Assembly (NCBI GenBank): GCA_963754655.1
Contig: CAVWGN010000001.1
Span: 2,304,001 to 2,368,000, forward strand
Length of the DNA: 64,000 nucleotides
Direction: 5' to 3'
Origin: an uncultured Chlamydiae bacterium
GTDB taxonomy: Bacteria; Chlamydiota; Chlamydiia; Chlamydiales; Parachlamydiaceae
In this document: piece after piece, positions 22,093 through 45,698 of the stretch
How positions within the stretch are numbered: the first letter of the stretch is position 1
How the letters are laid out: each line of letters opens with the position of its first letter
Made by a program: the position numbers and the translations under genes
The notes under the pieces: generated by a model
The model's database searches: none
What the model was told of the DNA's origin: nothing
Seen by the model: the letters and a program-made list of their open reading frames with translations, nothing else

Positions 22093-24009
22093 ATGAATAT
22101 TCCAACTTCAAGTCTTCCTTTATGCACAGGTGTTGGATACAAGCGAAACTCCACTTGTATTCAACCTTTCCAACCTCCTCGTAAACGAATCAAACAAGAG
22201 ATTAACCCTCAGACAATCTCCTCTGCTTTTCCATTTTGGCAAGAATTATCAAACTATAAGGATATTATTCTAAAAATTAGTTCTTATCTTAGAATTAAAG
22301 ATTTACTCCATTTAGAAGCTACTCATAAAGCACAAGGCAATTATACTAAGGACTTTTGGATTCAAAAGAAAAAGGATTCTGTCCCTAATTGGGCAATGTG
22401 TGAAAAAGAGCCTCATCAAGATAAATGGAACGTCTGTTTAACTTCAGCACTTAAACGCTGCGTCAAAGAATTAGCAGCAAATTCCATGGGAATTAATGTG
22501 CCATTAGCCCAAAACATCTTTCTTTACTCTCAAGGACTTTTCAAAAGATTTCCCTTGTATGGATGTTATGTTAAAAGCGAAATAACTAAATTAGCTAATA
22601 ACTCCCCTAATATCTTAAATGAATTACAATCACAAAAAGATGAAATTTATCAGTTAGCTTTACAAAAAAAGGGAGGAGAATTAATTCTTCAAACTCTTTT
22701 TGAAATACACAATTATCTTTCTCAACCCAATGCACGATCCTATTATTTAATTAGCCAATATGCAACGGAGGCAATTAATCAAAAAGCTTATTGCATTAGC
22801 CTATTTGCTTTAAAACTATTCTATCAAAAAAATTCACACGCAAATTTAAATAATGATCAACGAAATCTATTAGAAGATTTAAGTCTACAGGCTGCTAAAA
22901 AAGGATATTTTTTGGCGTTAGATCTTTTGCTCTCTCACTATTCTCCAGCAGATGTCCAAAAGTTAATTGATCAAGGCTTGTGTTATGCTCCAGTGCTAGC
23001 TCAGCAGGCTGTTCAGTTTTTCTCTACACAGCAATGGAGACAAGCTGACGCGCTTTTAGTGGAGGCCATTGCTAAATATGGAAATAAAGTTCCAGCTAAG
23101 GTTTTAAATAATGCAGCTTACATTAAAATGCGCTTGAAGCAATATTCTGAAGCAGATGCTCTCTATGCCCAAGCAATTGTCAAGTATGGGCCTCAAGTTT
23201 CAGCTTATATTCTAGACAATGCCGCTTTCGTTAAAAAAGAATTGAAGCAATATTCTGAAGCAGATGCTCTCTATGCCCAAGCTATTGCCAAGTATGGGCC
23301 TCAAGTTCCAGCTTATGTTCTAAAATATTCCGCTTTCGTTAAAAAAGAATTGAAGCAATATTTTGAAGCAGATGCACTTTATGCCCAAGCAATTGCCAAG
23401 TATGGGCCTCAAGTTCCAGCTGATGTTCTAACCGATTCCGCTTTCGTTAAAAAAGAATTGAAGCAATACCCTGAAGCAGATGCTCTCTATGCCCAAGCAA
23501 TTGCCAAGTATGGGCCTCAAGTTCCAGCTGATGTTCTAACCAATTCCGCTTTCATTAAAATACAATTGAAGCAATATTCTGAAGGAGATGCTCTCTATGC
23601 TCAAGCAATTGCCAAGTATGGGCCTCAAGTTCCAGCTTATATTCTAGCTAATTCCGCTTTCGTTAAAAAAGAATTGAAGCAATATTTTGAAGCAGATGCA
23701 CTTTATGCCCCAGCAATTGCCAAGTATGGGGACCAAGTTCCAGCTTATGTTCTAGTCAATTCCGCTTTCGTTAAAAAAGAATTGAAGCAATACCCTGAAG
23801 CAGATGCTCTCCATGCCCAAGCAATTGCCAAGTATGGGGACCAAGTTCCAGCTTCTGTTCTAGCCAATTCCGCTTTCGTTAAACAAGAATTGAAGCAATA
23901 CCCTGAAGCAGATGCACTTTATGCCCAAGCAATTGCCAAGTATGGGCATCAAGTTCCAGCTGATGTTTTAGAGGCTGCAGCTCAAGTTAAACTTCAATTA
24001 AAAGAATAA
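22093..24009 (+). CDS. Array paralog 1: NLS/F-box-like/36-aa TPR-like repeat protein, 8 repeats
   Basis: Repeats start at aa 335; 638 = 334 + 8x36 + 16. Confidence 0.9.
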   Translation: MNIPTSSLPLCTGVGYKRNSTCIQPFQPPRKRIKQEINPQTISSAFPFWQELSNYKDIILKISSYLRIKDLLHLEATHKAQGNYTKDFWIQKKKDSVPNWAMCEKEPHQDKWNVCLTSALKRCVKELAANSMGINVPLAQNIFLYSQGLFKRFPLYGCYVKSEITKLANNSPNILNELQSQKDEIYQLALQKKGGELILQTLFEIHNYLSQPNARSYYLISQYATEAINQKAYCISLFALKLFYQKNSHANLNNDQRNLLEDLSLQAAKKGYFLALDLLLSHYSPADVQKLIDQGLCYAPVLAQQAVQFFSTQQWRQADALLVEAIAKYGNKVPAKVLNNAAYIKMRLKQYSEADALYAQAIVKYGPQVSAYILDNAAFVKKELKQYSEADALYAQAIAKYGPQVPAYVLKYSAFVKKELKQYFEADALYAQAIAKYGPQVPADVLTDSAFVKKELKQYPEADALYAQAIAKYGPQVPADVLTNSAFIKIQLKQYSEGDALYAQAIAKYGPQVPAYILANSAFVKKELKQYFEADALYAPAIAKYGDQVPAYVLVNSAFVKKELKQYPEADALHAQAIAKYGDQVPASVLANSAFVKQELKQYPEADALYAQAIAKYGHQVPADVLEAAAQVKLQLKE

Positions 24010-24478: not shown

Positions 24479-26722
24479 ATGAATATTCAAAGTTCGAGTC
24501 TTTCTTTATGTACAGGTGTGGGGCACAAACGAAACTCCAATTGTATTCAACCTTTCAAACCTCCTCGCAAGCGAATCAAACTAGAGGCCACCCCTCAGAA
24601 CAACTCCTCTGCTAATTTTCCATTTTGGCAAGAATTATCAAACTATAAGGATATTATTCTAAAAATTAGTTCTTATCTTAGAATTAAAGATTTACTCCAT
24701 TTAGAAGCTACTCATCAAGCACAAAGCAATTATACTAACGACTTTTGGACTCAAAAGAGAAAGGATTCTGTACCTAATTGGGCCATGTGTGAAAAAGAAC
24801 CTCATCAAGATAAATGGAACATCTGTTTAACTTCAGCACTTAAACGCTGCGTCAAAGAATTAGCAGCAAATCCCACGGGGATTAATGTGCCATTAGGCCA
24901 AAACATCTTTCTTTACTCTCAAGGACTTTTCAAAAGATTCCCATTGTATGGATGTTATGTTGAAAGCGAAATAGCTAAATTAGCTACTAGCTCTTCTAAT
25001 ACCTTAAACAAATTACAATCACAAAAAGATGAAATTTATCAGTTAGCTTTACAAAAAAAGGGAGGGGAATTAATTCTTCAAACTCTTTTTGAAATCCACA
25101 CTTATCTTTCTCAACCCAATGCACGATCCTATGATTTAATTAGCCAATATGCAAAAGAGGCAATTAATCAAAAAGCTTATTGCATTAGTCTATTTGCTTT
25201 AAAACTATTCTATCAAAAAACTTCACACGCAAATTTAAATCATGATCAACGAAATCTATTAGAAGATTTAAGTCTACAAGCTGCTAAAAAAGGATATTTT
25301 TTGGCGTTAGATCTTTTGCTATCTTACTATTCTCCAGCAGACGTCCAAAAGTTAATTGATCAAGGCTTGTGTTATGCTCCAGTGCTAGCCCACCATGCTG
25401 TTCAGTTTTTCTCTACGCAGCAATGGGGAAAAGCGGACGCTCTTTTAGTGCAGGCCATCGCTAAATATGGGAATAAAGTTCCATTTAAGGTTTTAGATAA
25501 TGCAGCTTACCTTAAAACGTACTTGAAGCAATATTCTGAAGCAGATGCTCTCTATACCCAAGCAATTGTCAAGTATGGGCCTCAAGTTCCAGCTTACATT
25601 CTAGACAATGCCGCTTTCGTTAAAAACGAATTGAAGCAATATTCTGAAGCAGATGCACTTTATACCCAAGCAATTGCCAAGTATGGGCCTCAAGTTCCAG
25701 ATTATGTTCTAGCAAATTCCGCTTTCATTAAAAAAGAATTGAAGCAATATTTTGAAGCAGATGCAATTTATGCCCAAGCAATTGTCAAGTATGGGCCTCA
25801 AGTTCCAGATGATGTTCTAGCAAATTCCGCTTTCGTTAAAAAAGAATTGAAGCAATATTCTGAAGCAGATGCTCTCTATGCCCAAACTATGGCCAAGTAT
25901 GGACCTCAAGTTCCAGCTCATGTTCTAGCCAATTCCGCTTTCGTTAAACAAGAATTGAAGCAATATTTTGAAGCAGATGCACTTTATGCCCAAGCAATTG
26001 CCAAGTATGGGCCTCAAGTTCCAGCTTCTGTTCTAGAAAATGTCGCTTTCGTTAAAAAAGAATTGAAGCAATGTTTTGAAGCAGATGCACTTTATGCCCA
26101 AGCAATTGCCAAGTATGAGCCTCAAGTTCCAGCTTCTGTTCTAGCCAATTCCGCTTTCATTAAAATACAATTGAAGCAATATTTTGAAGGAGATGCTCTC
26201 TATGCCCAAGCTTTTGCCAAGTATGGGCTTCAAGTTCCAGATTATGTTCTAGCAAATGTCGCTTTCGTTAAACTAAAATTGAAGCACTATTCTGAAGCAG
26301 ATGCTCTTTATGCCCAAGCTTTTGCCAAGTATGGACCTCAAGTTCCAGATTATGTTCTAAACAATGCCGCTTTCGTTAAAAAAGAATTGAAGCAATATTT
26401 TGAAGCGGATGCATTTTATGCCCAAGCAATTGCCAAGTATGGGGACCAAGTTCCAGCTTCTGTTCTAGCCCATTCCGCTTTCGTTAAAAAAGAATTGAAT
26501 CAATACCCTGAAGCAGATGATCTCTATGCCCAAGCAATTGCCAAGGATGGAGACCAAATTCCAGCTTATGTTCTAACCCATTCCGCTTTCGTTAAAAAAG
26601 AATTGAAGCAATACCCTGAAGCATATGCACTTTATGCCCAAGCAATTGCCAAGTATGGGCCTCAAGTTCCAGATGATGTTTTAGAGGCTGCAGCTCAAGT
26701 TAAACTTCAATTAAAAGAATAA
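24479..26722 (+). CDS. Array paralog 2, 11 repeats
   Basis: Same N-terminal region (+1 aa) and 108-bp repeats. Confidence 0.9.
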   Translation: MNIQSSSLSLCTGVGHKRNSNCIQPFKPPRKRIKLEATPQNNSSANFPFWQELSNYKDIILKISSYLRIKDLLHLEATHQAQSNYTNDFWTQKRKDSVPNWAMCEKEPHQDKWNICLTSALKRCVKELAANPTGINVPLGQNIFLYSQGLFKRFPLYGCYVESEIAKLATSSSNTLNKLQSQKDEIYQLALQKKGGELILQTLFEIHTYLSQPNARSYDLISQYAKEAINQKAYCISLFALKLFYQKTSHANLNHDQRNLLEDLSLQAAKKGYFLALDLLLSYYSPADVQKLIDQGLCYAPVLAHHAVQFFSTQQWGKADALLVQAIAKYGNKVPFKVLDNAAYLKTYLKQYSEADALYTQAIVKYGPQVPAYILDNAAFVKNELKQYSEADALYTQAIAKYGPQVPDYVLANSAFIKKELKQYFEADAIYAQAIVKYGPQVPDDVLANSAFVKKELKQYSEADALYAQTMAKYGPQVPAHVLANSAFVKQELKQYFEADALYAQAIAKYGPQVPASVLENVAFVKKELKQCFEADALYAQAIAKYEPQVPASVLANSAFIKIQLKQYFEGDALYAQAFAKYGLQVPDYVLANVAFVKLKLKHYSEADALYAQAFAKYGPQVPDYVLNNAAFVKKELKQYFEADAFYAQAIAKYGDQVPASVLAHSAFVKKELNQYPEADDLYAQAIAKDGDQIPAYVLTHSAFVKKELKQYPEAYALYAQAIAKYGPQVPDDVLEAAAQVKLQLKE

Positions 26723-27188: not shown

Positions 27189-29753
27189 ATGAATATTCAA
27201 AGTTCAAGTCTTCCTTTATGCACAGGTGTTGGATACAAGCGAAACTCCACTTGTATTCAACCTTTCCAACCTCCTCGTAAACGAATCAAACAAGAGATTA
27301 ACCCTCAGACAATCTCCTCTACTTTTCCATTTTGGCAAGAATTATCAATCTATAAGGATATTATTCTAAAAATTAGTTCTTATCTTAGAATTAAAGATTT
27401 ACTCCATTTAGAAGCTACTCATAAAGCACAAGGCAATTATACTAAGGACTTTTGGATTCAAAAGAAAAAGGATTCTGTCCCTAATTGGGCAATGTGTGAA
27501 AAAGAGCCTCATCAAGATAAATGGAACGTCTGTTTAACTTCAGCACTTAAACGCTGCGTCAAAGAATTAGCAGCAAATTCCATGGGAATTAATGTGCCAT
27601 TAGCCCAAAACATCTTTCTTTACTCTCAAGGACTTTTCAAAAGATTTCCCTTGTATGGATGTTATGTTAAAAGCGAAATAACTAAATTAGCTAATAACTC
27701 CCCTAATATCTTAAATGAATTACAATCACAAAAAGATGAAATTTATCAGTTAGCTTTACAAAAAAAGGGAGGAGAATTAATTCTTCAAACTCTTTTTGAA
27801 ATACACAATTATCTCTCTCAACCCAATGCCCGATCCTATTATTTAATTAGCCAATATGCAACTGAGGCAATTAATCAAAAAGCTTATTGCATTAGCCTAT
27901 TTGCTTTAAAACTATTCTATCAAAAAACTTCACACGCAAATTTAAATAATGATCAACGAAATCTATTAGAAGATTTAAGTCTACAGGCTGCTAAAAAAGG
28001 ATATTTTTTGGCGTTAGATCTTTTGCTCTCTCACTATTCTCCAGCAGATGTCCAAAAGTTAATTGATCAAGGCTTATGTTATGCTCCAGTGCTAGCTCAG
28101 CAGGCTGTTCAGTTTTTCTCTACACAGCAATGGAGACAAGCTGACGCGCTTTTAGTGGAGGCCATTGCTAAATATGGGAATAAAGTTCCAGCTAAGGTTT
28201 TAAATAATGCAGCTTACATTAAAATGCGCTTGAAGCAATATTCTGAAGCAGATGCTCTCTATGCCCAAGCTATTGCCAAGTATGGGCCTCAAGTTTCAGC
28301 TTATATTCTAGACAATGCCGCTTTCGTTAAAAAAGAATTGAAGCAATATTCTGAAGCAGATGCTCTCTATGCCCAAGCAATTGCCAAGTATGGGCCTCAA
28401 GTTTCAGCTTATATTCTAAACAATGCAGCTTACATTAAAATGCAATTGAAGCAATATTCTGAAGCAGATGCTCTCTATGCCCAAGCAATTGTCAAGTATG
28501 GGCCTCAAGTTCCAGCTTATATTCTAGACAATGCCGCTTTCGTTAAAAAAGAATTGAAGCAATATTCTGAAGCAGATGCTCTCTATGCCCAAGCAATTGC
28601 CAAGTATGAGCCTCAAGTTTCAGATTATGTTCTAGCAAATTCCGCTTTCGTTAAAAAAGAATTGAAGCAATATTTTGAAGCAGATGCACTTTATGCCCGA
28701 GCTATTGCCCAGTATGGGCCTCAAGTTCCAGATTATGTTCTAGCACATTCCGCTTACATTAAAATGCAATTGAAGCAATATTCTGAAGCAGATGCTCTCT
28801 ATGCCCAAGCAATTGCCAAGTATGGGCCTCAAGTTCCAGATTATGTTCTAACAAATTCCGCTTACATTAAAATGCAATTGAAGCAATATTCTGAAGCAGA
28901 TGCTCTCTATGCCCAAGCTTTTGCCAAGTATGGGCCCCAAGTTCCAGCTTATATTCTAGCCAATTCCACTTTCGTTAAAAAAGAATTGAAGCAATACCCT
29001 GAAGCAGATGCACTTTATGCCCAAGCAATTGCCAAGTATGGGGACCAAGTTCCAGCTTCTGTTCTAAACAATGCCGCTTTCGTTAAAAAAGAATTGAAGC
29101 AATACCCTGAAGCAGATGCACTTTATGCCCAAGCAATTGCCAAGTATGGAGACCAAGTTCCAGTTTCTGTTCTAGTCCTGTCCGCTTTCGTGAAAAAAGA
29201 ATTGAAGCAATACCCTGAAGCAGATGCTCTCCATGCCCAAGCAATTGCCAAGTATGGAGACCAAATTCCAGCTTATGTTCTAACCGATTCCGCTTTCGTG
29301 AAAAAAGAATTGAAGCAATACCCTGAAGCAGATGCACTTTATGCCCAAGCAATTGCCAAGTATGGAGACCAAGTTCCAGCTTATATTCTAGTCAATTCCG
29401 CTTTCGTGAAAAAAGAATTGAACCAATACCCTGAAGCAGATGCTCTCCATGCTCAAGCAATTGCCAAGTATGGGGACCAAGTTCCAGCTTATGTTCTAAA
29501 CAATGCCGCTTTCGTTAAAAAAAAATTGAAGCAATATTTTGAAGCAGATGATCTCTATGCCCGAGCAATTGCCAAGGATGGAGACCAAATTCCAGCTTCT
29601 GTTCTAGCCAATTCCGCTTTCGTTAAAAAAGAATTGAAGCAATACCCTGAAGCGGATGCACTTTATGCCCAAGCAATTGCCAAGCTTGGACCGCAAGTTC
29701 CAGCTGATGTTTTAGAGGCTGCAGCTCAAGTTAAACTTCAATTAAAAGAATAA
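27189..29753 (+). CDS. Array paralog 3, 14 repeats
   Basis: Same architecture; N-terminal region nearly identical to paralog 1. Confidence 0.9.
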   Translation: MNIQSSSLPLCTGVGYKRNSTCIQPFQPPRKRIKQEINPQTISSTFPFWQELSIYKDIILKISSYLRIKDLLHLEATHKAQGNYTKDFWIQKKKDSVPNWAMCEKEPHQDKWNVCLTSALKRCVKELAANSMGINVPLAQNIFLYSQGLFKRFPLYGCYVKSEITKLANNSPNILNELQSQKDEIYQLALQKKGGELILQTLFEIHNYLSQPNARSYYLISQYATEAINQKAYCISLFALKLFYQKTSHANLNNDQRNLLEDLSLQAAKKGYFLALDLLLSHYSPADVQKLIDQGLCYAPVLAQQAVQFFSTQQWRQADALLVEAIAKYGNKVPAKVLNNAAYIKMRLKQYSEADALYAQAIAKYGPQVSAYILDNAAFVKKELKQYSEADALYAQAIAKYGPQVSAYILNNAAYIKMQLKQYSEADALYAQAIVKYGPQVPAYILDNAAFVKKELKQYSEADALYAQAIAKYEPQVSDYVLANSAFVKKELKQYFEADALYARAIAQYGPQVPDYVLAHSAYIKMQLKQYSEADALYAQAIAKYGPQVPDYVLTNSAYIKMQLKQYSEADALYAQAFAKYGPQVPAYILANSTFVKKELKQYPEADALYAQAIAKYGDQVPASVLNNAAFVKKELKQYPEADALYAQAIAKYGDQVPVSVLVLSAFVKKELKQYPEADALHAQAIAKYGDQIPAYVLTDSAFVKKELKQYPEADALYAQAIAKYGDQVPAYILVNSAFVKKELNQYPEADALHAQAIAKYGDQVPAYVLNNAAFVKKKLKQYFEADDLYARAIAKDGDQIPASVLANSAFVKKELKQYPEADALYAQAIAKLGPQVPADVLEAAAQVKLQLKE

Positions 29754-30252: not shown

Positions 30253-32817
30253 ATGAATATTCAAAGTTCGAGTCTTCCTTTATATACAGGTATTGGATAC
30301 AAGCGAAACTCCACTTGTATTCAACCTTTCCAACCTCCTCGCAAACGAATCAAACAAGAGATTAACCCTCAGAACAGCTCCTCTACTTTTCCATTTTGGC
30401 AAGAATTATCAAACTATAAGGACATTATTCTAAAGATTGGTTCCTATCTTAGAATTAAAGACTTACTTCATCTAGAAGCTACTCATCAAGCACAAAGCAA
30501 TTATACTAAGGATTTTTGGACTCAAAAGAGAAAGGATTCTGTACCTAATTGGGCCATGTGTGAAAAAGAGCCCCATCAAGATAAATGGGACGTCTGTTTA
30601 AATTCAGCACTTAAACGCTCTGTCAAAGAATTAGCAGCAAATTCCGCAGGGATTAATGTGTCATTAGCTCAAAATATCTTTCTTTACTCTCAAGGACTTT
30701 TCAAAAGATTTCCCTTGTATGGATGTTATGTTAAAAGCGAAATAGCTAAATTAGCTAGTAGCTCCCCTAATATCTTAAATGAATTAAAATCACAAAAAGA
30801 TGAAATTTACCAGTTAGCTTTACAAAAAAAGGGAGGAGAATTAATTCTTCAAACTCTTTTTGAAATCCATAATTATCTTCTTCAATCCAATGCACGATCC
30901 TATCACTTAATTAGCCAATATGCAACCGAGGCAATTAATCAAAAAGCTTATTGCATTAGTCTATTTGCTTTAAAACTATTCTATCAAAAAATTGCACATG
31001 CAAATTTAAATAATGATCAACGAATTCTATTAGAAAATTTAAGTCTACAGGCTGCTAAAAAAGGATATTTTTTGGCGTTAGATCTTTTGCTCTCTCACTA
31101 TTCTCCGGCAGACGTCCAAAAGTTAATTGATCAAGGCTTGTGTTATGCTCCAGTGCTAGCCCAGCAGGCTGTTCAGTTTTTCTCTACACAGCAATGGGGA
31201 AAAGCGGACGCGCTTTTAGTGGAGGCCATCGCTAAATATGGGAATAAAGTTCCAGCTAAGGTTTTAGATAATGCAGCTTACATTAAAATGCGATTGAAGC
31301 AATATTCTGAAGCAGATGCTCTCTATGCCCAAGCAATTGTCAAGTATGGGCCTCAAGTTCCAGCTCTTGTTCTAGACAATGCCGCTTTCGTTAAAATAGA
31401 ATTGAAGCAATATTCTGAAGCAGATGCTCTCTATTACCAAGCTATTGCCAAGTATGAACCTCAAGTTCCAGCTCTTGTTCTAGATCAGGCAGCTTACATT
31501 AAAATGCAATTGAAGCAAGATTCTGAAGCAGATGCTCTCTATGCCCAAGCAATTGTCAAGTATGGGCCTCAAGTTCCAGCTTATGTTCTAAAATATTCCG
31601 CTTTCGTTAAAAAAAAATTGAAGCAATATTCTGAAGCAGATGCACTTTATACCCAAGCAATTGCCAAGTATGGGCCTCAAGTTCCAGCTTATATTCTAGA
31701 CAATGCCGCTTTCGTTAAAACAGAATTGAAGCAATATCCTGAAGCAGATGCTCTCTATGCCCAAGCTATTGCCAAGTATGAACCTCAAGTTCCAGCTAAT
31801 GTTCTAGCCAATTCCGCTTTCGTTAAAAAAGAATTGAAGCAATATCCTGAAGCAGATGATCTCTATGCCCGAGCAATTGCCAAGGATGAACCTCAAGTTC
31901 CAGCTAATGTTCTAGCCGATTCCGCTTTCGTTAAAAAAGAATTGAAGCAATATCCTGAAGCAGATGATCTCTATGCCCGAGCAATTGCCAAGGATGAACC
32001 TCAAGTTCCAGCTAATGTTCTAGCCGATTCCGCTTTCGTTAAAAAAGAATTGAAGCAATATCCTGAAGCAGATGATCTCTATGCCCGAGCAATTGCCAAG
32101 GATGAATCTCAAGTTCCAGCTGATGTTCTAGATCAGGCAGCTTACATTAAAATGCAATTGAAGCAATATTCTGAAGCAGATGCTCTCTATGCCCAAGCTA
32201 TTGCCAAGTATGGGGAACAAGTTCCAGCTTATATTCTAGCCAATTCCGCTTTCGTTAAAAAAGAATTTAAGCAATACCCTGAAGCAGATGCTCTCTATGC
32301 TCAAGCAATTGCCAAGTATGGGCCTCAAGTTCCAGCTTCTGTTCTAGTCCTGTCCGCTTCCGTTAAAAAAGAATTGAAGCAATACCCTGAAGCAGATGCT
32401 CTCTATGCCCAAGCTATTGCCAAGTATGGGGAACAAGTTCCAGCTTATATTCTAGCCCAGTCCGCTTTCGTTAAAAAAGAATTGAAGCAATACCCTGAAG
32501 CAGATGCTCTCTGTGCCCAAGCAATTGCCAAGTATGGGCCTCAAGTTCCAGCTTCTGTTCTAGTCCTGTCCGCTTCCGTTAAAAAAGAATTGAAGCAATA
32601 CCCTGAAGCAGATGCTCTCTGTGCCCAAGCAATTGCCAAGCTTGGACCGCAAGTTCCAGCTTATATTCTAGCCAATTCCGCTTTCGTTAAACAAGAATTG
32701 AAGCAATACCCTGAAGCAGATGCACTTTATGCCCAAGCAATCGCCAAGTATGGGGACCAAGTTCCAGCTTATGTTTTAGAGGCTGCAGCTCAAGTTAAAC
32801 TTCAATTAAAAGAATAA
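30253..32817 (+). CDS. Array paralog 4, 14 repeats
   Basis: Same architecture; exact 108-bp periodicity at 31811-32106. Confidence 0.9.
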   Translation: MNIQSSSLPLYTGIGYKRNSTCIQPFQPPRKRIKQEINPQNSSSTFPFWQELSNYKDIILKIGSYLRIKDLLHLEATHQAQSNYTKDFWTQKRKDSVPNWAMCEKEPHQDKWDVCLNSALKRSVKELAANSAGINVSLAQNIFLYSQGLFKRFPLYGCYVKSEIAKLASSSPNILNELKSQKDEIYQLALQKKGGELILQTLFEIHNYLLQSNARSYHLISQYATEAINQKAYCISLFALKLFYQKIAHANLNNDQRILLENLSLQAAKKGYFLALDLLLSHYSPADVQKLIDQGLCYAPVLAQQAVQFFSTQQWGKADALLVEAIAKYGNKVPAKVLDNAAYIKMRLKQYSEADALYAQAIVKYGPQVPALVLDNAAFVKIELKQYSEADALYYQAIAKYEPQVPALVLDQAAYIKMQLKQDSEADALYAQAIVKYGPQVPAYVLKYSAFVKKKLKQYSEADALYTQAIAKYGPQVPAYILDNAAFVKTELKQYPEADALYAQAIAKYEPQVPANVLANSAFVKKELKQYPEADDLYARAIAKDEPQVPANVLADSAFVKKELKQYPEADDLYARAIAKDEPQVPANVLADSAFVKKELKQYPEADDLYARAIAKDESQVPADVLDQAAYIKMQLKQYSEADALYAQAIAKYGEQVPAYILANSAFVKKEFKQYPEADALYAQAIAKYGPQVPASVLVLSASVKKELKQYPEADALYAQAIAKYGEQVPAYILAQSAFVKKELKQYPEADALCAQAIAKYGPQVPASVLVLSASVKKELKQYPEADALCAQAIAKLGPQVPAYILANSAFVKQELKQYPEADALYAQAIAKYGDQVPAYVLEAAAQVKLQLKE

Positions 32818-33114: not shown

Positions 33115-34383
33115 ATGAATATTCAAAGTTCGAGCCTTCCTTTATGTACAGGTGTGGGATACAAGCGAAACTCCAATTGTATGCAACCCTTCCAACCTCC
33201 TCGCAAGCGAATCAAACTAGAGACTACCCCTCAGAACATCTCCTCTGCTTTTCCATTTTGGCAAGAATTATCAAACTATAAGGACATTATTCTAAAGATT
33301 GGCTCCTATCTTAGAATTAAAGACTTACTTCATCTAGAAGCTACTCATCAAACACAAGGCAATTATACTAAGGACTTTTGGACTCAAAAGAGAAAGGATT
33401 CTGTCCCTAATTGGGCCATGTGTGAAAAAGAGCCTCATCAAGACAAATGGAACGTCTGTTTAACTTCAGCACTTAAACGCACTGTCAAAGAATTAGCAGC
33501 AAATTCCGTAGAGATTAATGTGCCATTAGCCCAAAACATCTTTCTTTACTCTCAAGGACTTTTCAAAAGATTTCCCTTGTATGGATGTTATGTTAAAAGC
33601 GAAATAACTAAATTAGCTAATAGCTCCCCTAATATCTTAAATGAATTACAATCACAAAGAGATGAAATTTATCAGTTAGCTTTACAAAAAAAGGGAGGAG
33701 AATTAATTCTTCAAACTCTTTTTGAAATACACAATTATCTTTCTCAACCCAATGCACGATCCTATGATTTAATTAGCCAATATGCAACTGAGGCAATTAA
33801 TCAAAAAGCTTATTGCATTAGCCTATTTGCTTTAAAACTATTCTATCAAAAAACTTCACACCCAAATTTAAATAATGATCAACGAAATCTATTAGAAGAT
33901 TTAAGTCTACAGGCTGCTAAAAAAGGATATTTTTTGGCGTTAGATCGTTTGCTATCTTACTATTCTCCGGCAGACGTCCAAAAGTTAATTGATCAAGATT
34001 TGTGTTATGCTCCAGTGCTAGCCAAGCATGCTCTTTCATTTTTCTCTACACAGCAATGGGGACAAGCTGACGCGCTTTTAGTGGAGGCAATCTCTAAATA
34101 TGGGAATAAGGTTCCAGCTTATGTTCTAGTTAATGCCGCTTTAATGAAAATACAATTGAACCAATATTCTGAAGCAGATGCTCTCTATGCTAAAGCAATT
34201 GTCAAGTATGGGGACCAAGTTCCAGCTTATATTCTAGCTAATGCCGCTATAATTAAAACAGAATTGAAGCAATATTCTGAAGCAGATGCACTTTATACCC
34301 AATTAATTGCCCAGTTAGGACCTCAAGTTCCAGCTGATATTTTAGAAGCTGCAGCTCAAGTTAAACTGCAATTAAAAGAATAA
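33115..34383 (+). CDS. Array paralog 5, 2 repeats
   Basis: 422 = 334 + 2x36 + 16; intact terminal half-repeat. Confidence 0.88.
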   Translation: MNIQSSSLPLCTGVGYKRNSNCMQPFQPPRKRIKLETTPQNISSAFPFWQELSNYKDIILKIGSYLRIKDLLHLEATHQTQGNYTKDFWTQKRKDSVPNWAMCEKEPHQDKWNVCLTSALKRTVKELAANSVEINVPLAQNIFLYSQGLFKRFPLYGCYVKSEITKLANSSPNILNELQSQRDEIYQLALQKKGGELILQTLFEIHNYLSQPNARSYDLISQYATEAINQKAYCISLFALKLFYQKTSHPNLNNDQRNLLEDLSLQAAKKGYFLALDRLLSYYSPADVQKLIDQDLCYAPVLAKHALSFFSTQQWGQADALLVEAISKYGNKVPAYVLVNAALMKIQLNQYSEADALYAKAIVKYGDQVPAYILANAAIIKTELKQYSEADALYTQLIAQLGPQVPADILEAAAQVKLQLKE

Positions 34384-38786: not shown

Positions 38787-41243
38787 ATGAATATTCAAAG
38801 TTCAAGTCGTCCTTTATGTACAGGTGTTGGATACAAGCGAAACTCCACTTGTATTCAACCTTTCCAATCTCCTCGCAAACGAATCAAACAAGAGATTAAC
38901 CCTCGGACAATTTCCTCTACTTTTCCATTTTGGCAAGAATTATCAAACTATAAGGATATTATTCTAAAAATTAGTTCTTATCTTAGAATTAAAGATTTAC
39001 TCCATTTAGAAGCTACTCATAAAGTACAAGGCAATTATACTAAGGACTTTTGGATTCAAAAGAAAAAGGATTCTGTCCCTAATTGGGCAATGTGTGAAAA
39101 AGAGCCTCATCAAGATAAATGGAACGTCTGTTTAACTTCAGCACTTAAACGCTGCGTCAAAGAATTAGCAGCAAATTCCGTAGAGATTAATGTGTCATTA
39201 GCTCAAAATATCTTTCTTTACTCTCAAGGACTTTTCAAAAGATTCCCATTGTATGGATGTTATGTTGAAAGCGAAATAGCTAAATTAGCTAATAGCTCTC
39301 CTAATACCTTAAACAAATTACAATCACAAAAAGATGAAATTTACCAGTTAGCTTTACAAAAAAAGGGAGGAGAATTAATTCTTCAAACTCTTTTTGAAAT
39401 CCATAATTATCTTCTTCAATCCAATGCACGATCCTATCACTTAATTAGCCAATATGCAACCGAGGCAATTAATCAAAAAGCTTATTGCATTAGTCTATTT
39501 GCTTTAAAACTATTCTATCAAAAAATTGCACATGCAAATTTAAATAATGATCAACGAATTCTATTAGAAAATTTAAGTCTACAGGCTGCTAAAAAAGGAT
39601 ATTTTTTGGCGTTAGATCTTTTGCTCTCTCACTATTCTCCGGCAGACGTCCAAAAGTTAATTGATCAAGGCTTGTGTTATGCTCCAGTGCTAGCCCAGCA
39701 GGCTGTTCAGTTTTTCTCTACACAGCAATGGGGAAAAGCGGACGCGCTTTTAGTGGAGGCCATCGCTAAATATGGGAATAAAGTTCCAGCTAAGGTTTTA
39801 GATAATGCAGCTTACATTAAAATGCGATTGAAGCAATATTCTGAAGCAGATGCTCTCTATGCCCAAGCAATTGTCAAGTATGGGCCTCAAGTTCCAGCTC
39901 TTGTTCTAGACAATGCCGCTTTCGTTAAAATAGAATTGAAGCAATATTCTGAAGCAGATGCTCTCTGTGCCCAAGCAATTGTCAAGTATGGGCCTCAAGT
40001 TCCAGCTTATATTCTAAACAATGCCGCTTTCGTTAAAACAGAATTGAATCAATATTTTGAAGCAGATGCTCTCTATGCCCAAGCTATTGCCAAGTATGGG
40101 CCTCAAGTTCCAGCTTATATTCTAAACAATGCAGCTTTCGTTAAAAAAGAATTGAAGCAATATCCTGAAGCAGATGATCTCTATGCCCAAGCAATTGTCA
40201 AGTATGGGCCTCAAGTTCCAGCTAATGTTCTAGCCAATTCCGCTTTCGTTAAAAAAGAATTGAAGCAATATCCTGAAGCAGATGATCTCTATGCCCGAGC
40301 AATTGCCAAGGATGAATCTCAAGTTCCAGCTGATGTTCTAGATCAGGCAGCTTACATTAAAATGCAATTGAAGCAATATTCTGAAGCAGATGCTCTCTAT
40401 GCCCAAGCAATTGTCAAGTATGGGCCTCAAGTTCCAGTTTATATTCTAAACAATGCCGCTTTCGTTAAAAAACAATTTAAGCAATATTCTGAAGCAGATG
40501 CTCTCTATGCCCAAGCAATTGTCAAGTATGGGCCTCAAGTTCCAGCTTATATTCTAAACAATGCAGCTTTCGTTAAAATAGAATTGAAGCAATATTCTGA
40601 AGGAGATGCTCTCTGTGCCCAAGCAATTGCCAAGTATGGGCCTCAAGTTCCAGCTTCTGTTCTAGTCAAGTCCGCTTTCGTTAAAAAAGAATTGAAGCAA
40701 TACCCTGAAGCGGATGCTCTCTGTGCCCAAGCAATTGCCAAGCTTGGACCGCAAGTTCCAGCTAATGTTCTAGACAATGCCGCTGAAGTTAAAATAGGAT
40801 TGAAGCAATATTTTGAAGCAGATGCTCTCTGTGCCCAAGCAATTGCCAAGTATGGGCCTCAAATTCCAGCTTCTATTCTAGTCAAGTCCGCTTTCGTTAA
40901 AAAAGAATTGAAGCAATATTTTGAAGCAGATGCTCTCTATGCCCAAGCAATTGCCAAGTATGGGCCTCAAGTTCCAGCTTCTGTTCTAGTCCTGTCCGCT
41001 TTCGTTAAAAAAGAATTGAAGCAATATCCTGAAGCAGATGCTCTCTGTGCCCAAGCAATTGCCAAGTATGGGGACCGAGTTCCAGCTAATGTTCTAGCTA
41101 ATGCCGCTATAGTTAAAACAGAATTGAAGCAATACCCTGAAGCAGATGCACTTTATGCCCAAGCAATCGCCAAGTATGGGCATCAAGTTCCAGCTGATGT
41201 TTTAGAGGCTTCAGCTCAAGTTAAACTTCAATTAAAAGAATAA
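38787..41243 (+). CDS. Array paralog 6, 13 repeats
   Basis: 818 = 334 + 13x36 + 16. Confidence 0.9.
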   Translation: MNIQSSSRPLCTGVGYKRNSTCIQPFQSPRKRIKQEINPRTISSTFPFWQELSNYKDIILKISSYLRIKDLLHLEATHKVQGNYTKDFWIQKKKDSVPNWAMCEKEPHQDKWNVCLTSALKRCVKELAANSVEINVSLAQNIFLYSQGLFKRFPLYGCYVESEIAKLANSSPNTLNKLQSQKDEIYQLALQKKGGELILQTLFEIHNYLLQSNARSYHLISQYATEAINQKAYCISLFALKLFYQKIAHANLNNDQRILLENLSLQAAKKGYFLALDLLLSHYSPADVQKLIDQGLCYAPVLAQQAVQFFSTQQWGKADALLVEAIAKYGNKVPAKVLDNAAYIKMRLKQYSEADALYAQAIVKYGPQVPALVLDNAAFVKIELKQYSEADALCAQAIVKYGPQVPAYILNNAAFVKTELNQYFEADALYAQAIAKYGPQVPAYILNNAAFVKKELKQYPEADDLYAQAIVKYGPQVPANVLANSAFVKKELKQYPEADDLYARAIAKDESQVPADVLDQAAYIKMQLKQYSEADALYAQAIVKYGPQVPVYILNNAAFVKKQFKQYSEADALYAQAIVKYGPQVPAYILNNAAFVKIELKQYSEGDALCAQAIAKYGPQVPASVLVKSAFVKKELKQYPEADALCAQAIAKLGPQVPANVLDNAAEVKIGLKQYFEADALCAQAIAKYGPQIPASILVKSAFVKKELKQYFEADALYAQAIAKYGPQVPASVLVLSAFVKKELKQYPEADALCAQAIAKYGDRVPANVLANAAIVKTELKQYPEADALYAQAIAKYGHQVPADVLEASAQVKLQLKE

Positions 41244-41544: not shown

Positions 41545-43461
41545 ATGAATATTGAAAGTTCGAGTCTTTCTTTATGTACAGGTGTGGGACACAAGCGAAA
41601 CTCCACTTGTATTCAACCCTTCCAACCTCCTCGTAAACGAATCAAACAAGAGATTAACCCTCAGACAATCTCCTCTACTTTTCCATTTTGGCAAGAATTA
41701 TCAAATTATCAGGATATTATTTTAAAAATTGGTTCTTATCTTAGAATTAAAGATTTACTCCATCTAGAAGCCACTCATCAAGCACAAAGCAATTACAATA
41801 AGGACTTTTGGACTCAAAAGAGAAAGGCTTCTGTATCTAATTGGGCCATGTGTGAAAAAGAGCCCCATCAAGATAAATGGGACGTCTGTTTAAATTCAGC
41901 ACTTAAACGCACTGTCAAAGAATTAGCAGCAAATTCCTTGCAGACTAATGTGCCTTTAGCTCAAAACATCTTTCTTTACTCTCAAGGACTTTTCAAAAGA
42001 TTTCCTTTATATGGATGTTATGTTGAAAGCGAAATAGCTAAATTAACTAATAGCTCCCCTAACATCTTAAACAGATTACAAACACAAAAAGATGAGATTT
42101 ACTATTTAGCTTTACAAAAAAAAGGAGGAGAATTAATTCTTCAAACTCTTTTTGAAATACACAATTATCTTCTTCAACCCAATGCACGATCCTATCACTT
42201 AATTAGCCAATATGCAACCGAGGCAATTAATCAAAAAGCTTATTGCATTAGTCTATTTGCTTTAAAACTATTCTATCAAAAAATTGCACATGCAAATTTA
42301 AATAATGATCAACGAAATCTATTAGAAGATTTAAGTCTACAGGCTGCTAAAAAAGGATATTTTTTGGCGTTAGATCTTTTGCTCTCTCACTATTCTCCGG
42401 CAGACGTCCAAAAGTTAATTGATCAAGGCTTGTGTTATGCTCCAGTGCTAGCCCACCAGGCTGTTCAGTTTTTCTCTACACAGCAATGGGGAAAAGCGGA
42501 CGCGCTTTTAGTGGAGGCCATCGCTAAATATGGGAATAAAGTTCCAGCTAATGTTTTAGATAATGCAGCTTACATTAAAACGCACTTGAAGCAATATTCT
42601 GAAGCAGATGCACTTTATGCCCAAGCAATTGTCAAGTATGGGCCTCAAGTTCCAGCTTATATTCTAGACAATGCCGCTTTCGTTAAAATAGAATTGAAGC
42701 AATATTCTGAAGCAGATGCTCTCTATTCCCAAGCTATTGCCAAGTATGAACCTCAAGTTCCAGCTCTTGTTCTAGATCCGGCAGCTTACATTAAAATGCA
42801 ATTGAAGCAATATTCTGAAGCAGATGCTCTCTATGCCCAAGCAATTGTCAAGTATGGGCCTCAAGTTCCAGCTTATGTTCTAAAATATTCCGCTTTCGTT
42901 AAAAAAAAATTGAAGCAATATTTTGAAGCAGATGCACTTTATGCCCAAGCAATTGCCAAGTATGAACCTCAAGTTCCAGCTGAGGTTTTAGATAATGCAG
43001 CTTACATTAAAATGCAATTGAAGCAATATTCTCAAGCAGATGCTCTCTATGCCCAAGCAATTGTCAAGTGTGGGCCTCAAGTTCCAGCTTATATTCTAGG
43101 CAATGCTGCTTTCGTTAAAAAAGAATTGAAGCAATATTCTGAAGCAGATGCTCTCTATGCCCAAACTATTGCCAAGCTTGAACCGCAAGTTCCAGCTAAT
43201 GTTCTAGCCAATTCTGCTTTCGTTAAAAAAGAATTGAAGCAATACCCTGAAGCAGATGATCTCTATGCCCGAGCAATTGCCAAGGATGGAGACCAAATTA
43301 CAGCTTATGCTCTAGCCGATTCCGCTTTCGTTAAAAAAGAATTGAAGCAATACCCTGAAGCGGATGCACTTTATGCTCAAGCAATTGCCAAGCTTGGACC
43401 GCAAGTTCCAGCTGATGTTTTAGAGGCTGCAGCTCAAGTTAAACTTCAATTAAAAGAATAA
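41545..43461 (+). CDS. Array paralog 7, 8 repeats
   Basis: Same architecture. Confidence 0.9.
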   Translation: MNIESSSLSLCTGVGHKRNSTCIQPFQPPRKRIKQEINPQTISSTFPFWQELSNYQDIILKIGSYLRIKDLLHLEATHQAQSNYNKDFWTQKRKASVSNWAMCEKEPHQDKWDVCLNSALKRTVKELAANSLQTNVPLAQNIFLYSQGLFKRFPLYGCYVESEIAKLTNSSPNILNRLQTQKDEIYYLALQKKGGELILQTLFEIHNYLLQPNARSYHLISQYATEAINQKAYCISLFALKLFYQKIAHANLNNDQRNLLEDLSLQAAKKGYFLALDLLLSHYSPADVQKLIDQGLCYAPVLAHQAVQFFSTQQWGKADALLVEAIAKYGNKVPANVLDNAAYIKTHLKQYSEADALYAQAIVKYGPQVPAYILDNAAFVKIELKQYSEADALYSQAIAKYEPQVPALVLDPAAYIKMQLKQYSEADALYAQAIVKYGPQVPAYVLKYSAFVKKKLKQYFEADALYAQAIAKYEPQVPAEVLDNAAYIKMQLKQYSQADALYAQAIVKCGPQVPAYILGNAAFVKKELKQYSEADALYAQTIAKLEPQVPANVLANSAFVKKELKQYPEADDLYARAIAKDGDQITAYALADSAFVKKELKQYPEADALYAQAIAKLGPQVPADVLEAAAQVKLQLKE

Positions 43462-43997: not shown

Positions 43998-45698
43998 ATG
44001 AATATTCAAAGTTCGAGTCTTTCCTTATGTACAGGTGTGGGACACAAGCGAAACTCCACTTGTATTCAACCCTTCCAACCTCCTCGTAAACGAATCAAAC
44101 AAGAGATTAAGCCTCAGACAATCTCCTCTACTTTTCCATTTTGGCAAGAATTATCAAATTATCGGGATATTATTTTAAAAATTGGTTCTTATCTTAGAAT
44201 TAAAGATTTACTCCATCTAGAAGCCACTCATCAAGCACAAAGCAATTATACTAAGGACTTTTGGATTCAAAAGAAAAAGAATTCTGTACCCAATTGGGCC
44301 ATGTGTGAAAAAGAGCCTCATCAAGATAAATGGGACGTCTGTTTAAATTCAGCACTTAAACGCTCTGTCAAAGAATTAGCAGCAAATTCCGCAGGGGTTA
44401 ATGTGTCATTAGCTCAAAATATCTTTCTTTACTCTCAAGGACTTTTCAAAAGATTTCCCTTGTATGGATGTTATGTTAAAAGCGAAATAGCTAAATTAGC
44501 TAGTAGCTCCCCTAATATCTTAAATGAATTAAAATCACAAAAAGATGAAATTTACCAGTTAGCTTTACAAAAAAAGGGAGGAGAATTAATTCTTCAAACT
44601 CTTTTTGAAATCCACAATTATCTTTCTCAACCCAATGCACGATCTTATTATTTAATTAGCCAATATGCAACTGAGGCAATTAATCAAAAAGCTTATTGCA
44701 TTAGTCTATTTGCTTTAAAACTATTCTATCAAAAAATTGCACACGCAAATTTAAATAATGATCAACGAAATCTATTAGAAGATTTAAGTCTACAGGCTGC
44801 TAAAAAAGGATATTTTTTGGCGTTAGATCTTTTGCTCTCTCACTATTCTCCGGCAGACGTCCAAAAGTTAATTGATCAAGGCTTGTGTTATGCTCCAGTG
44901 CTAGCCAAGCAGGCTGTTCAGTTTTTCTCTACACAGCAATGGGGACAAGCTGACGCGCTTTTAGTGGAGGCCATCGCTAAATATGGGAATAAAGTTCCAG
45001 CTGAGGTTTTAGATAATGCAGCTTACATTAAAACGCACTTGAAGCAATATTCTGAAGCAGATGCTCTCTATGCCCAAGCAATTGTCAAGTATGGGCCTCA
45101 AGTTCCAGCTCTTGTTCTAGGCAATGCCGCTTTCGTTAAAATAGAATTGAAGCAATACCCTGAAGTAGATGCTCTCTGTGCCCAAGCAATTGCCAAGTAT
45201 GGGCCTCAAGTTCCAGCTTATATTCTAGACAATGCCGCTTTCGTTAAAAAAGAATTGAAGCAATATTTTGAAGCAGATGCTCTCTATGCCCAAGCTATTG
45301 CCAAGTATGAACCTCAAGTTCCAGCTAATGTTCTAGCCAATTCCGCTTTCGTTAAAAAAGAATTGAAGCAATACCCTGAAGCAGATGCTCTCTGTGCCCA
45401 AGCAATTGCCAAGTATGGGGAACAAGTTCCAGCTTCTGTTCTATGCAATTCCGCTTTCGTTAAAAAAGAATTGAAGCAATACTCTGAAGCAGATGCTCTC
45501 TGTGCCCAAGCAATTGCCAAGTATGGGGAACAAGTTCCAGCTTACGTTCTAACCCATTATGCTTTCGTTAAAAAAGAATTGAAGCAATACCCTGAAGCAG
45601 ATGCACTTTATGCCCAAGCAATCGCCAAGTATGGGCATCAAGTTCCAGCTGATGTTTTAGAGGCTTCAGCTCAAGTTAAACTTCAATTAAAAGAATAA
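43998..45698 (+). CDS. Array paralog 8, 6 repeats
   Basis: 566 = 334 + 6x36 + 16. Confidence 0.9.
   Translation: MNIQSSSLSLCTGVGHKRNSTCIQPFQPPRKRIKQEIKPQTISSTFPFWQELSNYRDIILKIGSYLRIKDLLHLEATHQAQSNYTKDFWIQKKKNSVPNWAMCEKEPHQDKWDVCLNSALKRSVKELAANSAGVNVSLAQNIFLYSQGLFKRFPLYGCYVKSEIAKLASSSPNILNELKSQKDEIYQLALQKKGGELILQTLFEIHNYLSQPNARSYYLISQYATEAINQKAYCISLFALKLFYQKIAHANLNNDQRNLLEDLSLQAAKKGYFLALDLLLSHYSPADVQKLIDQGLCYAPVLAKQAVQFFSTQQWGQADALLVEAIAKYGNKVPAEVLDNAAYIKTHLKQYSEADALYAQAIVKYGPQVPALVLGNAAFVKIELKQYPEVDALCAQAIAKYGPQVPAYILDNAAFVKKELKQYFEADALYAQAIAKYEPQVPANVLANSAFVKKELKQYPEADALCAQAIAKYGEQVPASVLCNSAFVKKELKQYSEADALCAQAIAKYGEQVPAYVLTHYAFVKKELKQYPEADALYAQAIAKYGHQVPADVLEASAQVKLQLKE

What the first reader, a model, noticed from the sequence alone, without database searches (positions are those of the whole stretch)
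23095..23960. Repeat variation maps to TPR ligand-groove positions and is mostly non-synonymous
Seen: numbering from the Ala after VP, the unit fits TPR spacing (L4, A7/S7, A8, Y17, A20, Y24, A27) with a 2-aa longer loop. The main variable sites are 2, 5, 6, 9, 12, 13 and 18. Codon changes fall mostly at first and second positions (pos 2 tat/gat/tct/aat/ctt/cat; pos 5 gac/acc/gtc/gcc/aac/ggc/tgc; pos 6 aat/gat/cat/tat), while scaffold codons are nearly fixed. Known: helix-A positions 2, 5, 6, 9, 12 and 13 line the concave ligand-binding face of TPR arrays, and an Asn ladder there binds extended peptides. Inference: diversifying selection on the binding surface, making this a natural binder library.
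Basis: partly seen in the sequence, partly recalled or inferred. Interest (0 to 1): 0.75.

Follow-up and report, generated by a model that had tools for sequence, protein, structure and literature searches.

The report
Diversifying binding grooves in chlamydial effectors
Nine neighbouring genes of a chlamydia-like bacterium carry near-identical protein repeats that differ mostly at the six positions predicted to line a binding groove, with a statistical excess of amino-acid change there, so they likely form a reshuffled set of host-protein grabbers that would tag their targets for destruction.

Summary
Confirmed and extended. The stretch is the repeat region of the first of nine tandem paralogs. 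Each has an NLS-like tail, a weak F-box-like motif, a helical domain and 2-14 TPR units of 36 aa (79 units in all).

Positions 2, 5, 6, 9, 12 and 13, the published peptide-contact positions, hold most of the variation. A tree-free codon model gives omega 8.7 there, 1.25 elsewhere and 0.39 in the N-terminal domain. No neutral simulation (0 of 190) came near the observed statistic. A separately homogenised array in another genus has exactly these six as its most variable sites.

Corrections: the codon lists pool paralogs; position 18 is not a groove site; 33 and 7 also vary; the pooled scaffold is not nearly fixed; within-codon dN/dS alone is only 1.3. No reverse-transcriptase diversifier was found.

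The regime matches fungal NLR repeats, but here it sits in probable secreted ubiquitin-ligase adaptors, for which purifying selection was reported. Ligands, secretion and Skp1 binding are untested.

The parts
22093..24009 (+). g1, 638 aa: NLS-like tail, F-box-like motif, helical domain, 8 TPR units, cap helix
22093..22230 (+). Predicted disordered N-terminal tail (aa 1-46) with a basic PPRKRIK NLS-like motif; putative secretion signal region (untested)
   Evidence: pLDDT under 50 for aa 1-46; K[KR]x[KR] in the first 70 aa of 59 of 147 homologs vs 10 of 136 in a control segment
22240..22374 (+). F-box-like three-helix motif (aa about 50-94), diverged, lacks the usual Leu-Pro start
   Evidence: own score not significant (E 0.48); aligned homologs pass the Pfam F-box cut-off; family profile hits 7 F-box proteins weakly; helices 56-65, 68-77, 81-94
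22375..23094 (+). All-helical family domain plus a degenerate first repeat; no clear fold match; purifying selection (omega about 0.33)
23095..23958 (+). Eight 108-bp/36-aa TPR units (the finding); hypervariable at 2, 5, 6, 9, 12, 13, also 18, 33, 7
23959..24009 (+). C-terminal capping helix, nearly identical in all nine paralogs
24479..26722 (+). g2, 747 aa, 11 units
27189..29753 (+). g3, 854 aa, 14 units
30253..32817 (+). g4, 854 aa, 14 units
33115..34383 (+). g5, 422 aa, 2 units
38787..41243 (+). g6, 818 aa, 13 units
41545..43461 (+). g7, 638 aa, 8 units
43998..45698 (+). g8, 566 aa, 6 units
45978..47354 (+). g9, 458 aa, 3 units

Best explanation
The nine genes encode near-identical TPR repeat arrays whose variation is concentrated, with dN/dS above 1, at the six positions predicted to line the peptide-binding groove, and they are likely secreted effectors whose F-box-like motif would link the bound host protein to the host SCF ubiquitin ligase. 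Steps: (1) shown: tandem duplication, repeat-number change and near-equal similarity of units within and between genes. (2) Inferred: unequal crossing-over and gene conversion keep the scaffold uniform and re-deal the units. (3) Shown statistically: excess amino-acid change at 2, 5, 6, 9, 12, 13, purifying selection on the N-terminal domain. (4) Predicted: the units stack into a TPR superhelix in which Asn6 (55 of 79 units) would hold an extended peptide backbone, while 2, 5, 9, 12 and 13 would read side chains. (5) Inferred and untested: type III export into a protist host, nuclear import through the basic motif, Skp1 binding and substrate degradation. Selection would then favour new groove combinations that keep pace with changing host targets or hosts.
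For: Register: model residue 335 aligns to residue 1 of an 8-repeat consensus TPR (8chy; Z 28.4, rmsd 2.9, 272 of 272 aligned). The next rows are LGN/Pins TPR complexes with partner proteins. Pfam TPR position 1 equals unit position 1 in homologs. PMC1261162 (passages) names 2, 5, 6, 9, 12, 13 as HOP peptide contacts and Asn6 as a backbone contact.

Selection, tree-free model: omega 8.7 groove vs 1.25 other (LRT 46); hotspot null rejected at p=0.002; helix-A-specific rate LRT 33. Omega 3.5-6.4 and p<=0.02 in 7 of 7 genes tested singly; 4.8 after dropping first and first-type units (62 units); N-terminal domain 0.39 at similar theta. Tree-based M2a vs M1a LRT 59. Plain allele counts: 30 extra alleles at 12 groove first/second positions vs 12 at 17 fourfold sites (p=4e-5). 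Largest neutral values: omega 3.3 and LRT 9.0 in 110 runs, 3.95 and 10.7 in 80 multi-nucleotide runs.

Out of sample: in G006 (other genus, own scaffold, 19 units) the top six sites are exactly 2, 13, 12, 5, 9, 6, with omega 9.9 vs 0.70. In a second TPR family of this genome with no significant BLASTP similarity, omega is 3.0 vs 0.38 (34 units). Negative control: 109 PPR units gave no class above 1.

Shuffling: nearest unit lies in another gene for 60 of 79 (12 same gene, 7 ties); within-gene difference 14.1% vs between-gene 14.9%.

F-box: 3 of 60 homologs pass the Pfam cut-off at the aligned segment; 11 of 24 PDB rows, 7 proteins, are F-box proteins; 10 F-box-like hits over cut-off in this genome. 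An SctV/FlhA-family export gate is present.
Against: Within-codon piN/piS in the groove is only 1.31, and the minimum-step ratio is 1.01. Pooled non-groove omega is about 1 (1.25 tree-free, 0.86 tree-based), and non-groove first/second positions carry more extra alleles per site (0.92) than fourfold sites (0.71). So the scaffold is weakly constrained or the synonymous baseline is depressed, and the size of omega is uncertain (3 to 9 by method). The hotspot null is rejected in only 2 of 7 single genes and not in the finding's own gene. The tree model flags 18 and 33 but not 9 or 13 in this family, and only site 5 in g1. In the second TPR family only 1 of 3 genes is significant alone. The F-box score of these nine genes is not significant (best E 0.48; 0 of 2 own N-termini hit), the Leu-Pro start is missing, and all PDB profile hits have E>0.03. 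PMC4209131 (passages) found purifying selection and no concerted evolution in other chlamydial F-box families. Both codon models are my own code, not PAML or HyPhy. No ligand, secretion or expression data.
Confidence: 0.6

Rival explanations
1. Same diversified groove, but not a degrader. The F-box-like motif is vestigial, or the N-terminal helical domain does the work, and the proteins act as nuclear binders, decoys or inhibitors; the ligand could even be nucleic acid read unit by unit (TALE- or PPR-like).
For: Weak, Leu-Pro-less F-box in these paralogs. A 200-aa helical domain without a clear fold match. NLS-like motif. The second TPR family shows the same pattern with no F-box family hit at E<=0.001. 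Invariant or near-invariant Lys at 11, 15 and 30.
Against: The F-box segment is under purifying selection (omega 0.29), and aligned homologs pass the Pfam cut-off. Groove residues are mixed: 189 of 474 aromatic or aliphatic, 91 acidic, 63 basic, spread over six sites, unlike the two-site PPR pattern seen elsewhere in this genome. The best structural matches are TPR protein-binding domains.
Confidence: 0.17
2. Protected specificity rather than an arms race. Each unit's groove residues are old and useful; gene conversion wipes out differences everywhere else, and selection only rejects conversions that overwrite the groove. This also gives an apparent omega above 1.
For: Pairwise synonymous diversity in groove codons is raised (0.275 vs 0.157, mostly codon 5). 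A first-unit haplotype recurs at internal places, and removing it halves omega.
Against: Freed groove theta is not raised (0.49 vs 0.60). Fourfold sites beside the groove codons (1, 3, 4, 8) are invariant. Many groove alleles are singletons, and unit order differs between paralogs.
Confidence: 0.13
3. No selection for diversity: a young, redundant family under relaxed constraint, with exposed codons drifting and local mutation hotspots or multi-base changes inflating omega.
For: Pooled scaffold omega near 1. Within-codon ratios near 1. Hotspot null not rejected in 5 of 7 single genes.
Against: 0 of 190 neutral simulations reach the observed omega or LRT. Hotspot null rejected in the pooled data and in G006 (p=0.002 and 0.0001). 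The same six positions recur in arrays with different DNA sequence. Positions 16, 19 and 21, outside the groove, stay nearly invariant. All nine reading frames are intact.
Confidence: 0.08
4. A diversity-generating retroelement mutates adenines of AAY codons in the repeats.
Against: No RVT_1 match in the genome, which is 96.7% complete. All unit copies found lie within the nine genes, so no separate template. Third-position adenines of scaffold codons are kept in 64-79 of 79 units, and adenines are not the most variable base (extra alleles per site: A 1.0, C 1.32, G 1.15, T 0.87).
Confidence: 0.01

Closest known systems
Fungal NLR repeats with high internal conservation (Podospora het-d/e/r WD40; TPR and ANK loci). 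PMC4986451: abstract passage, passages and section 17 read. PMC13449251: abstract and passages read.
   Same: Near-identical repeats, repeat-number variation, exchange of units between genes, and positively selected sites mapped to the concave TPR face.
   Different: Here the genes are bacterial, no NACHT or NB-ARC domain was detected, they carry an F-box-like and NLS-like N-terminus, and they are likely offensive effectors rather than immune sensors. Units are 36 aa. Diversity is seen among tandem paralogs; allelic polymorphism was not examined.
Parachlamydiaceae expanded F-box/BTB repeat families NEX1, NEX2 (F-box, DUF294, TPR), PEX1, PEX2. PMC4209131: passages read; supplements not opened.
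   Same: Chlamydial tandem paralog family pairing a ubiquitin-pathway motif with C-terminal TPRs of varying number; proposed type III effectors.
   Different: No DUF294, OTU or CHAT hit here. Paralogs are 88-98% identical in the N-terminus, against 45-64% average identity there. That paper reports gene-wide dN/dS of 0.29-0.63, no positive selection and no concerted evolution; here units are homogenised and six sites exceed 1.
Generic TPR ligand-site hypervariability (Magliery and Regan 2005). PMC1261162: passages read.
   Same: The same positions (2, 5, 9, 12, 13; contact and Asn at 6; possibly 33).
   Different: That is variation across all TPRs over deep time at the protein level; here it is among units about 85% identical in DNA, with codon-level evidence.
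Bacterial F-box repeat effectors: Legionella AnkB (as described in PMC4209131 passages) and Orientia Ank5/Ank13 (search listing only)
   Same: F-box plus repeat binder architecture acting on host ubiquitin ligases.
   Different: Ankyrin rather than TPR repeats, and experimentally shown activity; whether their repeats are homogenised and site-diversified I did not check.

Membership tests
TPR repeat proteins | Helix-turn-helix units with the consensus at 4, 7, 8, 11, 17, 20, 24, 27, 32 | tested here: met
   Pfam TPR_12 and TPR_10 over cut-off; 4, 7, 8, 17, 20, 24, 27 fit, while 11 is Lys, 32 is Gly/Glu and the unit is 36 aa (consensus recalled)
TPR repeat proteins | Superhelical fold with helix A forming a concave groove | tested here: met
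   Predicted model, pLDDT 85-98 per 10-residue block over the repeats; Z 28.4, rmsd 2.9, 272 aligned to consensus TPR 8chy. Prediction only
TPR repeat proteins | Groove binds a peptide or protein ligand | not testable with these tools
   No ligand known
F-box proteins (SCF substrate adaptors) | F-box motif | tested here: inconclusive
   Own genes E 0.48-0.73, 0 of 2; 3 of 60 homologs over cut-off; profile hits to 7 solved F-box proteins at E 0.04-1.7
F-box proteins (SCF substrate adaptors) | Skp1 binding and substrate ubiquitylation | not testable with these tools
   No host Skp1 sequence among the session's sequences or the complex tool's references; no job sent
High-internal-conservation (HIC) diversifying repeats | Repeats about 80-100% identical | tested here: met
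   82-90% DNA matches in the seven longer arrays, 82% and 76% in the two shortest; mean difference 14%
High-internal-conservation (HIC) diversifying repeats | A few sites under positive selection on the binding face | tested here: met
   own implementations
High-internal-conservation (HIC) diversifying repeats | Repeat exchange between genes | tested here: inconclusive
   Nearest unit in another gene for 60 of 79; four-gamete pairs 608 of 1035. Recent whole-gene duplication and homoplasy contribute; only 3 of 36 gene pairs share an identical tract of 110 bp or more
High-internal-conservation (HIC) diversifying repeats | Repeat-number polymorphism among alleles in a population | not testable with these tools
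   Only one genome and one short-contig run; number varies 2-14 among paralogs
NLR (STAND) receptors | NACHT or NB-ARC ATPase domain | tested here: not met
   No such Pfam hit in g1-g3 (only an N-terminal-helical-domain model at E 0.01-0.02 inside the repeats); the N-terminal model is all-helical
Neochlamydia NEX2 family | F-box plus DUF294 nucleotidyltransferase (in most members) plus TPR | tested here: not met
   No DUF294 or OTU hit; NEX2 sequences themselves were not compared
Type III secreted effectors | Secretion system in the genome and translocation of the protein | tested here: inconclusive
   One SctV/FlhA-family gene; predicted disordered N-terminus; translocation untested
Diversity-generating retroelement target | Reverse transcriptase, template repeat, adenine-specific variation | tested here: not met

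The most novel reading that the evidence does not exclude
Environmental chlamydiae run an offensive counterpart of the fungal NLR diversification system. Homogenised, shuffled repeat units with a few positively selected contact residues serve as interchangeable specificity modules on host-directed effectors, across several unrelated scaffolds in one genome (two TPR families, about 98 DUF4116 arrays, Myb arrays). The F-box-TPR family would be a natural set of modular, re-programmable protein degraders with a readable unit-to-residue code.
Probability: 0.25. Interest if true: 0.85.

Novelty: new variant of a known kind. Interest (0 to 1): 0.58.

Why it matters
The published view of the expanded chlamydial F-box families is birth-and-death evolution under purifying selection, from gene-wide averages (PMC4209131). 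This family shows that site-specific diversifying selection on the binding face can hide under such averages (N-terminal omega 0.39, groove 3-9), and that the concerted-evolution-plus-diversification regime described for fungal immune receptors also operates on probable bacterial effectors. It makes an open question testable: what these effectors target and whether paralogs differ in specificity. With a nearly constant scaffold and 56 natural groove words, specificity can be tied to six residues per unit, which is also useful for designed TPR binders.

Tried and rejected
DGR: rejected.

Within-codon dN/dS as the test: underpowered, gave 1.0-1.3; replaced by shared-rate models.

Position 18 as a groove site: it lies at the start of helix B in the model, has four residues only, tree-free P(omega>1) is 0.74, and it is invariant in G006. 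It is variable in the metagenome lineage and flagged by the tree model, so it is left open as a non-groove variable site.

DNA for metagenome homologs P0006-P0009: scan found 77 pattern matches and no relative, so these were analysed as protein only (21 of 22 units; one unit with an insertion dropped).

Protein-level test in further homologs: 37 of 157 proteins had four or more detected units; the 9 with at least 50% unit identity were tested and 8 gave p<0.005. Four of these are one lineage that seeded the profile, and old arrays show only generic TPR variability, so I give this little weight.

Fold searches of the N-terminal model: no Foldseek match at E<=0.001 and best Z 8.2 to helical proteins; no F-box chain listed. 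This is inconclusive.

Atlas look-ups returned no result.

Sequencing runs: no RNA holder listed. One soil DNA run holds 40% of sampled words; its short contigs cover both the N-terminus and the repeats but cannot resolve units and may be the source sample, so it was not used as support.

Relatives: matches in 4 of 41 genomes including this one, 0 of 3 of the same genus with this query, so no strain-level orthologs.

Literature: nine searches in an open-access library listed no paper on site-level positive selection in chlamydial repeat effectors; subscription papers and the supplements of PMC4209131 were not seen and could bear on novelty.

The DUF4116 single-cluster fit ran past its bound and is not quoted. 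The complex predictor was not used (no host partner available).

Full report
What is there. The finding lies in ORF 22093-24009 (+, 638 aa), the first of nine co-oriented paralogs between 22093 and 47354. All share a 334-aa N-terminal part (88.5-98.5% identical to g1), then 8, 11, 14, 14, 2, 13, 8, 6 and 3 units of 108 bp, and a capping helix. That gives 79 internal units; each gene's degenerate first repeat and cap were left out of all counts. All units are in frame without stops. Every close copy of the unit in the 3.16-Mb genome lies in this cluster. The organism is chlamydia-like: family members occur in three other genera of its family, a 31%-identical relative sits in a record titled Parachlamydiales (L049), and the genome has one SctV/FlhA-family gene and many F-box-like hits (10 over cut-off).

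Register and fold. Pfam calls the repeats TPR. In homologs, TPR profile position 1 falls on unit position 1. The AlphaFold model is confident over the repeats. It aligns from residue 335, the Ala after VP, to residue 1 of an 8-repeat consensus TPR (Z 28.4, rmsd 2.9, 272 of 272 aligned over 287 model residues, about two extra per unit); LGN/Pins complexes follow at Z 28.0-27.6. A weak sequence alignment to CHIP agrees with this register (E 0.06). PMC1261162 (passages) lists 2, 5, 6, 9, 12 and 13 as HOP peptide contacts, 2, 5, 9, 12, 13, 33 and 34 as the most variable concave-face positions, and Asn6 as a backbone contact. The test positions were therefore fixed from the literature. I could not read model coordinates, so the concave-face assignment rests on register.

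Where the variation is. Entropy ranks 5, 2, 12, 6, 18, 33, 13, 9, 7, 3; groove mean 1.93 bits against 0.76 overall, p=1e-5. Two genes of G006 (another genus, about 31% identical, with their own homogenised scaffold, 19 units) rank 2, 13, 12, 5, 9, 6 as the top six, and position 18 is invariant there. A metagenome lineage (21 units, protein only) gives p=5.5e-5.

Is it selection? The simplest test is weak. Within the groove codons piN/piS is 1.31 (others 0.67) and the minimum-step ratio is 1.01 (others 1.07), with only 2.7 synonymous sites per unit. Measured against the unit's synonymous rate the excess is clear: 30 extra alleles at 12 groove first/second positions against 12 at 17 fourfold sites (p=4e-5); G006 18 of 12 against 8 of 15 (p=9e-4); g1 alone 13 of 12 against 6 of 17 (p=0.002).

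Because units recombine, I wrote a tree-free codon model after genomegaMap (method recalled, checked by simulation). It gives omega 8.7 in the groove and 1.25 elsewhere (LRT 46). A groove-specific mutation rate with omega fixed at 1 fits worse (p=0.002), and a helix-A-specific rate does not remove the signal (LRT 33). Single genes give 3.5-6.4 against 0.45-0.88, p<=0.02 in 7 of 7 (g5 and g9 have too few units and were not tested); the hotspot null is rejected in 2 of 7, not in g1. Dropping first and first-type units leaves 4.8 (62 units, LRT 22). The N-terminal domain gives 0.39 at similar theta (0.42 vs 0.59). G006 gives 9.9 against 0.70, hotspot p=0.0001.

Neutral simulations with 79 units (one tree, free recombination, blocks, growth, rate variation: 110 runs; multi-nucleotide mutation: 80 runs) reached at most omega 3.95 and LRT 10.7; 6 of the first 110 passed the nominal 5% level. 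A tree-based M2a vs M1a test gives LRT 59 (79 units), 17.4 (G006) and 15.7 (g1), with fixed-site omega 3.2, 3.8 and 3.0. It flags 2, 5, 6, 12, 18, 33 here, and 2, 5, 6, 9, 12, 13 at 0.87 or more in G006 (29 and 24 lower); recombination can inflate such tests. The method does not ring everywhere: 109 near-identical PPR units of the same genome give no class above 1. A second TPR family of this genome, with no significant similarity to this one and its register set by Pfam, ranks 6, 13, 9, 2, 36, 12 and gives 3.0 against 0.38; 1 of its 3 genes is significant alone.

One result remains awkward. Pooled non-groove sites sit near omega 1, with many rare replacements. The scaffold is either loosely constrained in this redundant family or the synonymous baseline is low. 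The direction of the result is robust; the size (3 to 9) is not.

How diversity is made. No reverse transcriptase, no template copy and no adenine bias. Units differ by 14.1% within and 14.9% between genes; the nearest unit is in another gene for 60 of 79; 608 of 1035 informative column pairs show all four gametes. This fits duplication plus conversion and unequal crossing-over; identical tracts between genes are short (3 of 36 pairs at 110 bp or more), so exchange is not very recent or uses short tracts. The result is 56 distinct six-residue groove words among 79 units.

What the proteins likely do. The N-terminal family has 232 representatives at 50% clustering. The first 46 residues are predicted disordered and carry a basic motif (59 of 147 homologs vs 10 of 136 control segments). 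Residues about 50-94 form three predicted helices that align with segments passing Pfam's F-box cut-off in 3 of 60 homologs scanned, out of 147 listed. The family profile's PDB hits include seven different F-box proteins at this segment, each weak (E 0.04-1.7). In the nine paralogs the motif scores only E 0.48 or worse and lacks the Leu-Pro start, though it is under purifying selection (omega 0.29). The rest of the domain has no clear fold match. The most likely mechanism is an exported, possibly nuclear, SCF substrate adaptor whose TPR groove selects targets. Export, Skp1 binding and ligands are inferred.

Comparison with what is known. TPR groove hypervariability is known (PMC1261162). Chlamydial F-box-TPR families are known, but were reported as diverged, under purifying selection and not concerted (PMC4209131, passages). 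Near-identical repeats with positively selected concave-face sites and exchange between genes are known from fungal NLRs and noted in NLR-like proteins of other groups, including bacteria (PMC4986451, section 17 and passages; PMC13449251, passages). This family works like those repeats but is not an NLR. Nine searches of the open-access library listed no report of this regime in chlamydial effectors; that is not proof of absence.

Verdict. Observation confirmed with corrections; interpretation supported. New variant of a known kind. Confidence that the groove is under selection for diversity is about 0.85; confidence in the full F-box adaptor mechanism is about 0.6. Interest 0.58.

Noticed in passing
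G000:C1:2736645-2768371 (L044 = first gene); also 2586974-2588806 (L048) and 1739496-1741496: Nine tandem arrays with 109 near-identical PPR units in a bacterium; positions 5 and 35 alternate as TN 30, NN 29, TD 26, ND 17 (PPR code recalled). Two genes seen end in an LD[LC]HG...[IV]TG[KI]G motif that resembles an Smr nuclease domain (recalled; not listed by Pfam). They look like natural programmable RNA binders or cutters. No omega above 1.
   Followed up: partly
G000:C1:1211906-1228439 (L045 = first gene): Cluster of proteins with up to 13 tandem Myb repeats (44 units in 8 arrays counted); variation concentrates at unit positions 33, 34, 37, 38 and 41-43, in the last helix region (recognition helix recalled), with a class at omega about 10 (LRT 40).
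   Followed up: partly
genome-wide, e.g. L046 = G000:C1:2035622-2037649; short member at window 16047-16568 (-): About 98 arrays (817 units) of 75-bp DUF4116 repeats; the one member scanned has an F-box-like N-terminus below cut-off. Variation concentrates at unit positions 12, 14 and 17, with a class at omega about 9 (LRT 29; high divergence, so rough).
   Followed up: partly
G000:C1:1650783-1652627 (L043), 1679637-1681574, 1694989-1696356; older copies near 1.10 Mb: Second 36-aa TPR family with a basic NLS-like N-terminus and no F-box hit; same groove positions vary.
   Followed up: yes
window 34928-37993: An IS481 transposase (34928-36061) and three ORFs in a row (36273-37993; the middle one has no Pfam or NCBIfam hit) interrupt the paralog array between g5 and g6.
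   Followed up: partly
window 21500-21800, and the 3' flanks of g1-g8: A long palindrome lies upstream of g1, and short hairpin-like repeat elements follow most paralogs' stop codons; they may have aided duplication (untested).
   Followed up: no
window 13163-14569 (+): 468-aa protein with a RING-like N-terminus and ankyrin-like hits, all below Pfam cut-offs; another likely ubiquitin-pathway effector.
   Followed up: partly
L006:3799-4638 and L002:589-1221: In G006 the two homogenised paralogs are separated by two ORFs that look like a HipA-type kinase module (motif resemblance, recalled; not scanned).
   Followed up: no
L022:1480-3783: A G006 family member in which most repeats are replaced by what looks like a protein-kinase domain (HGDLKPEN motif; not scanned), showing that the N-terminal module takes other C-terminal cargo.
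   Followed up: no
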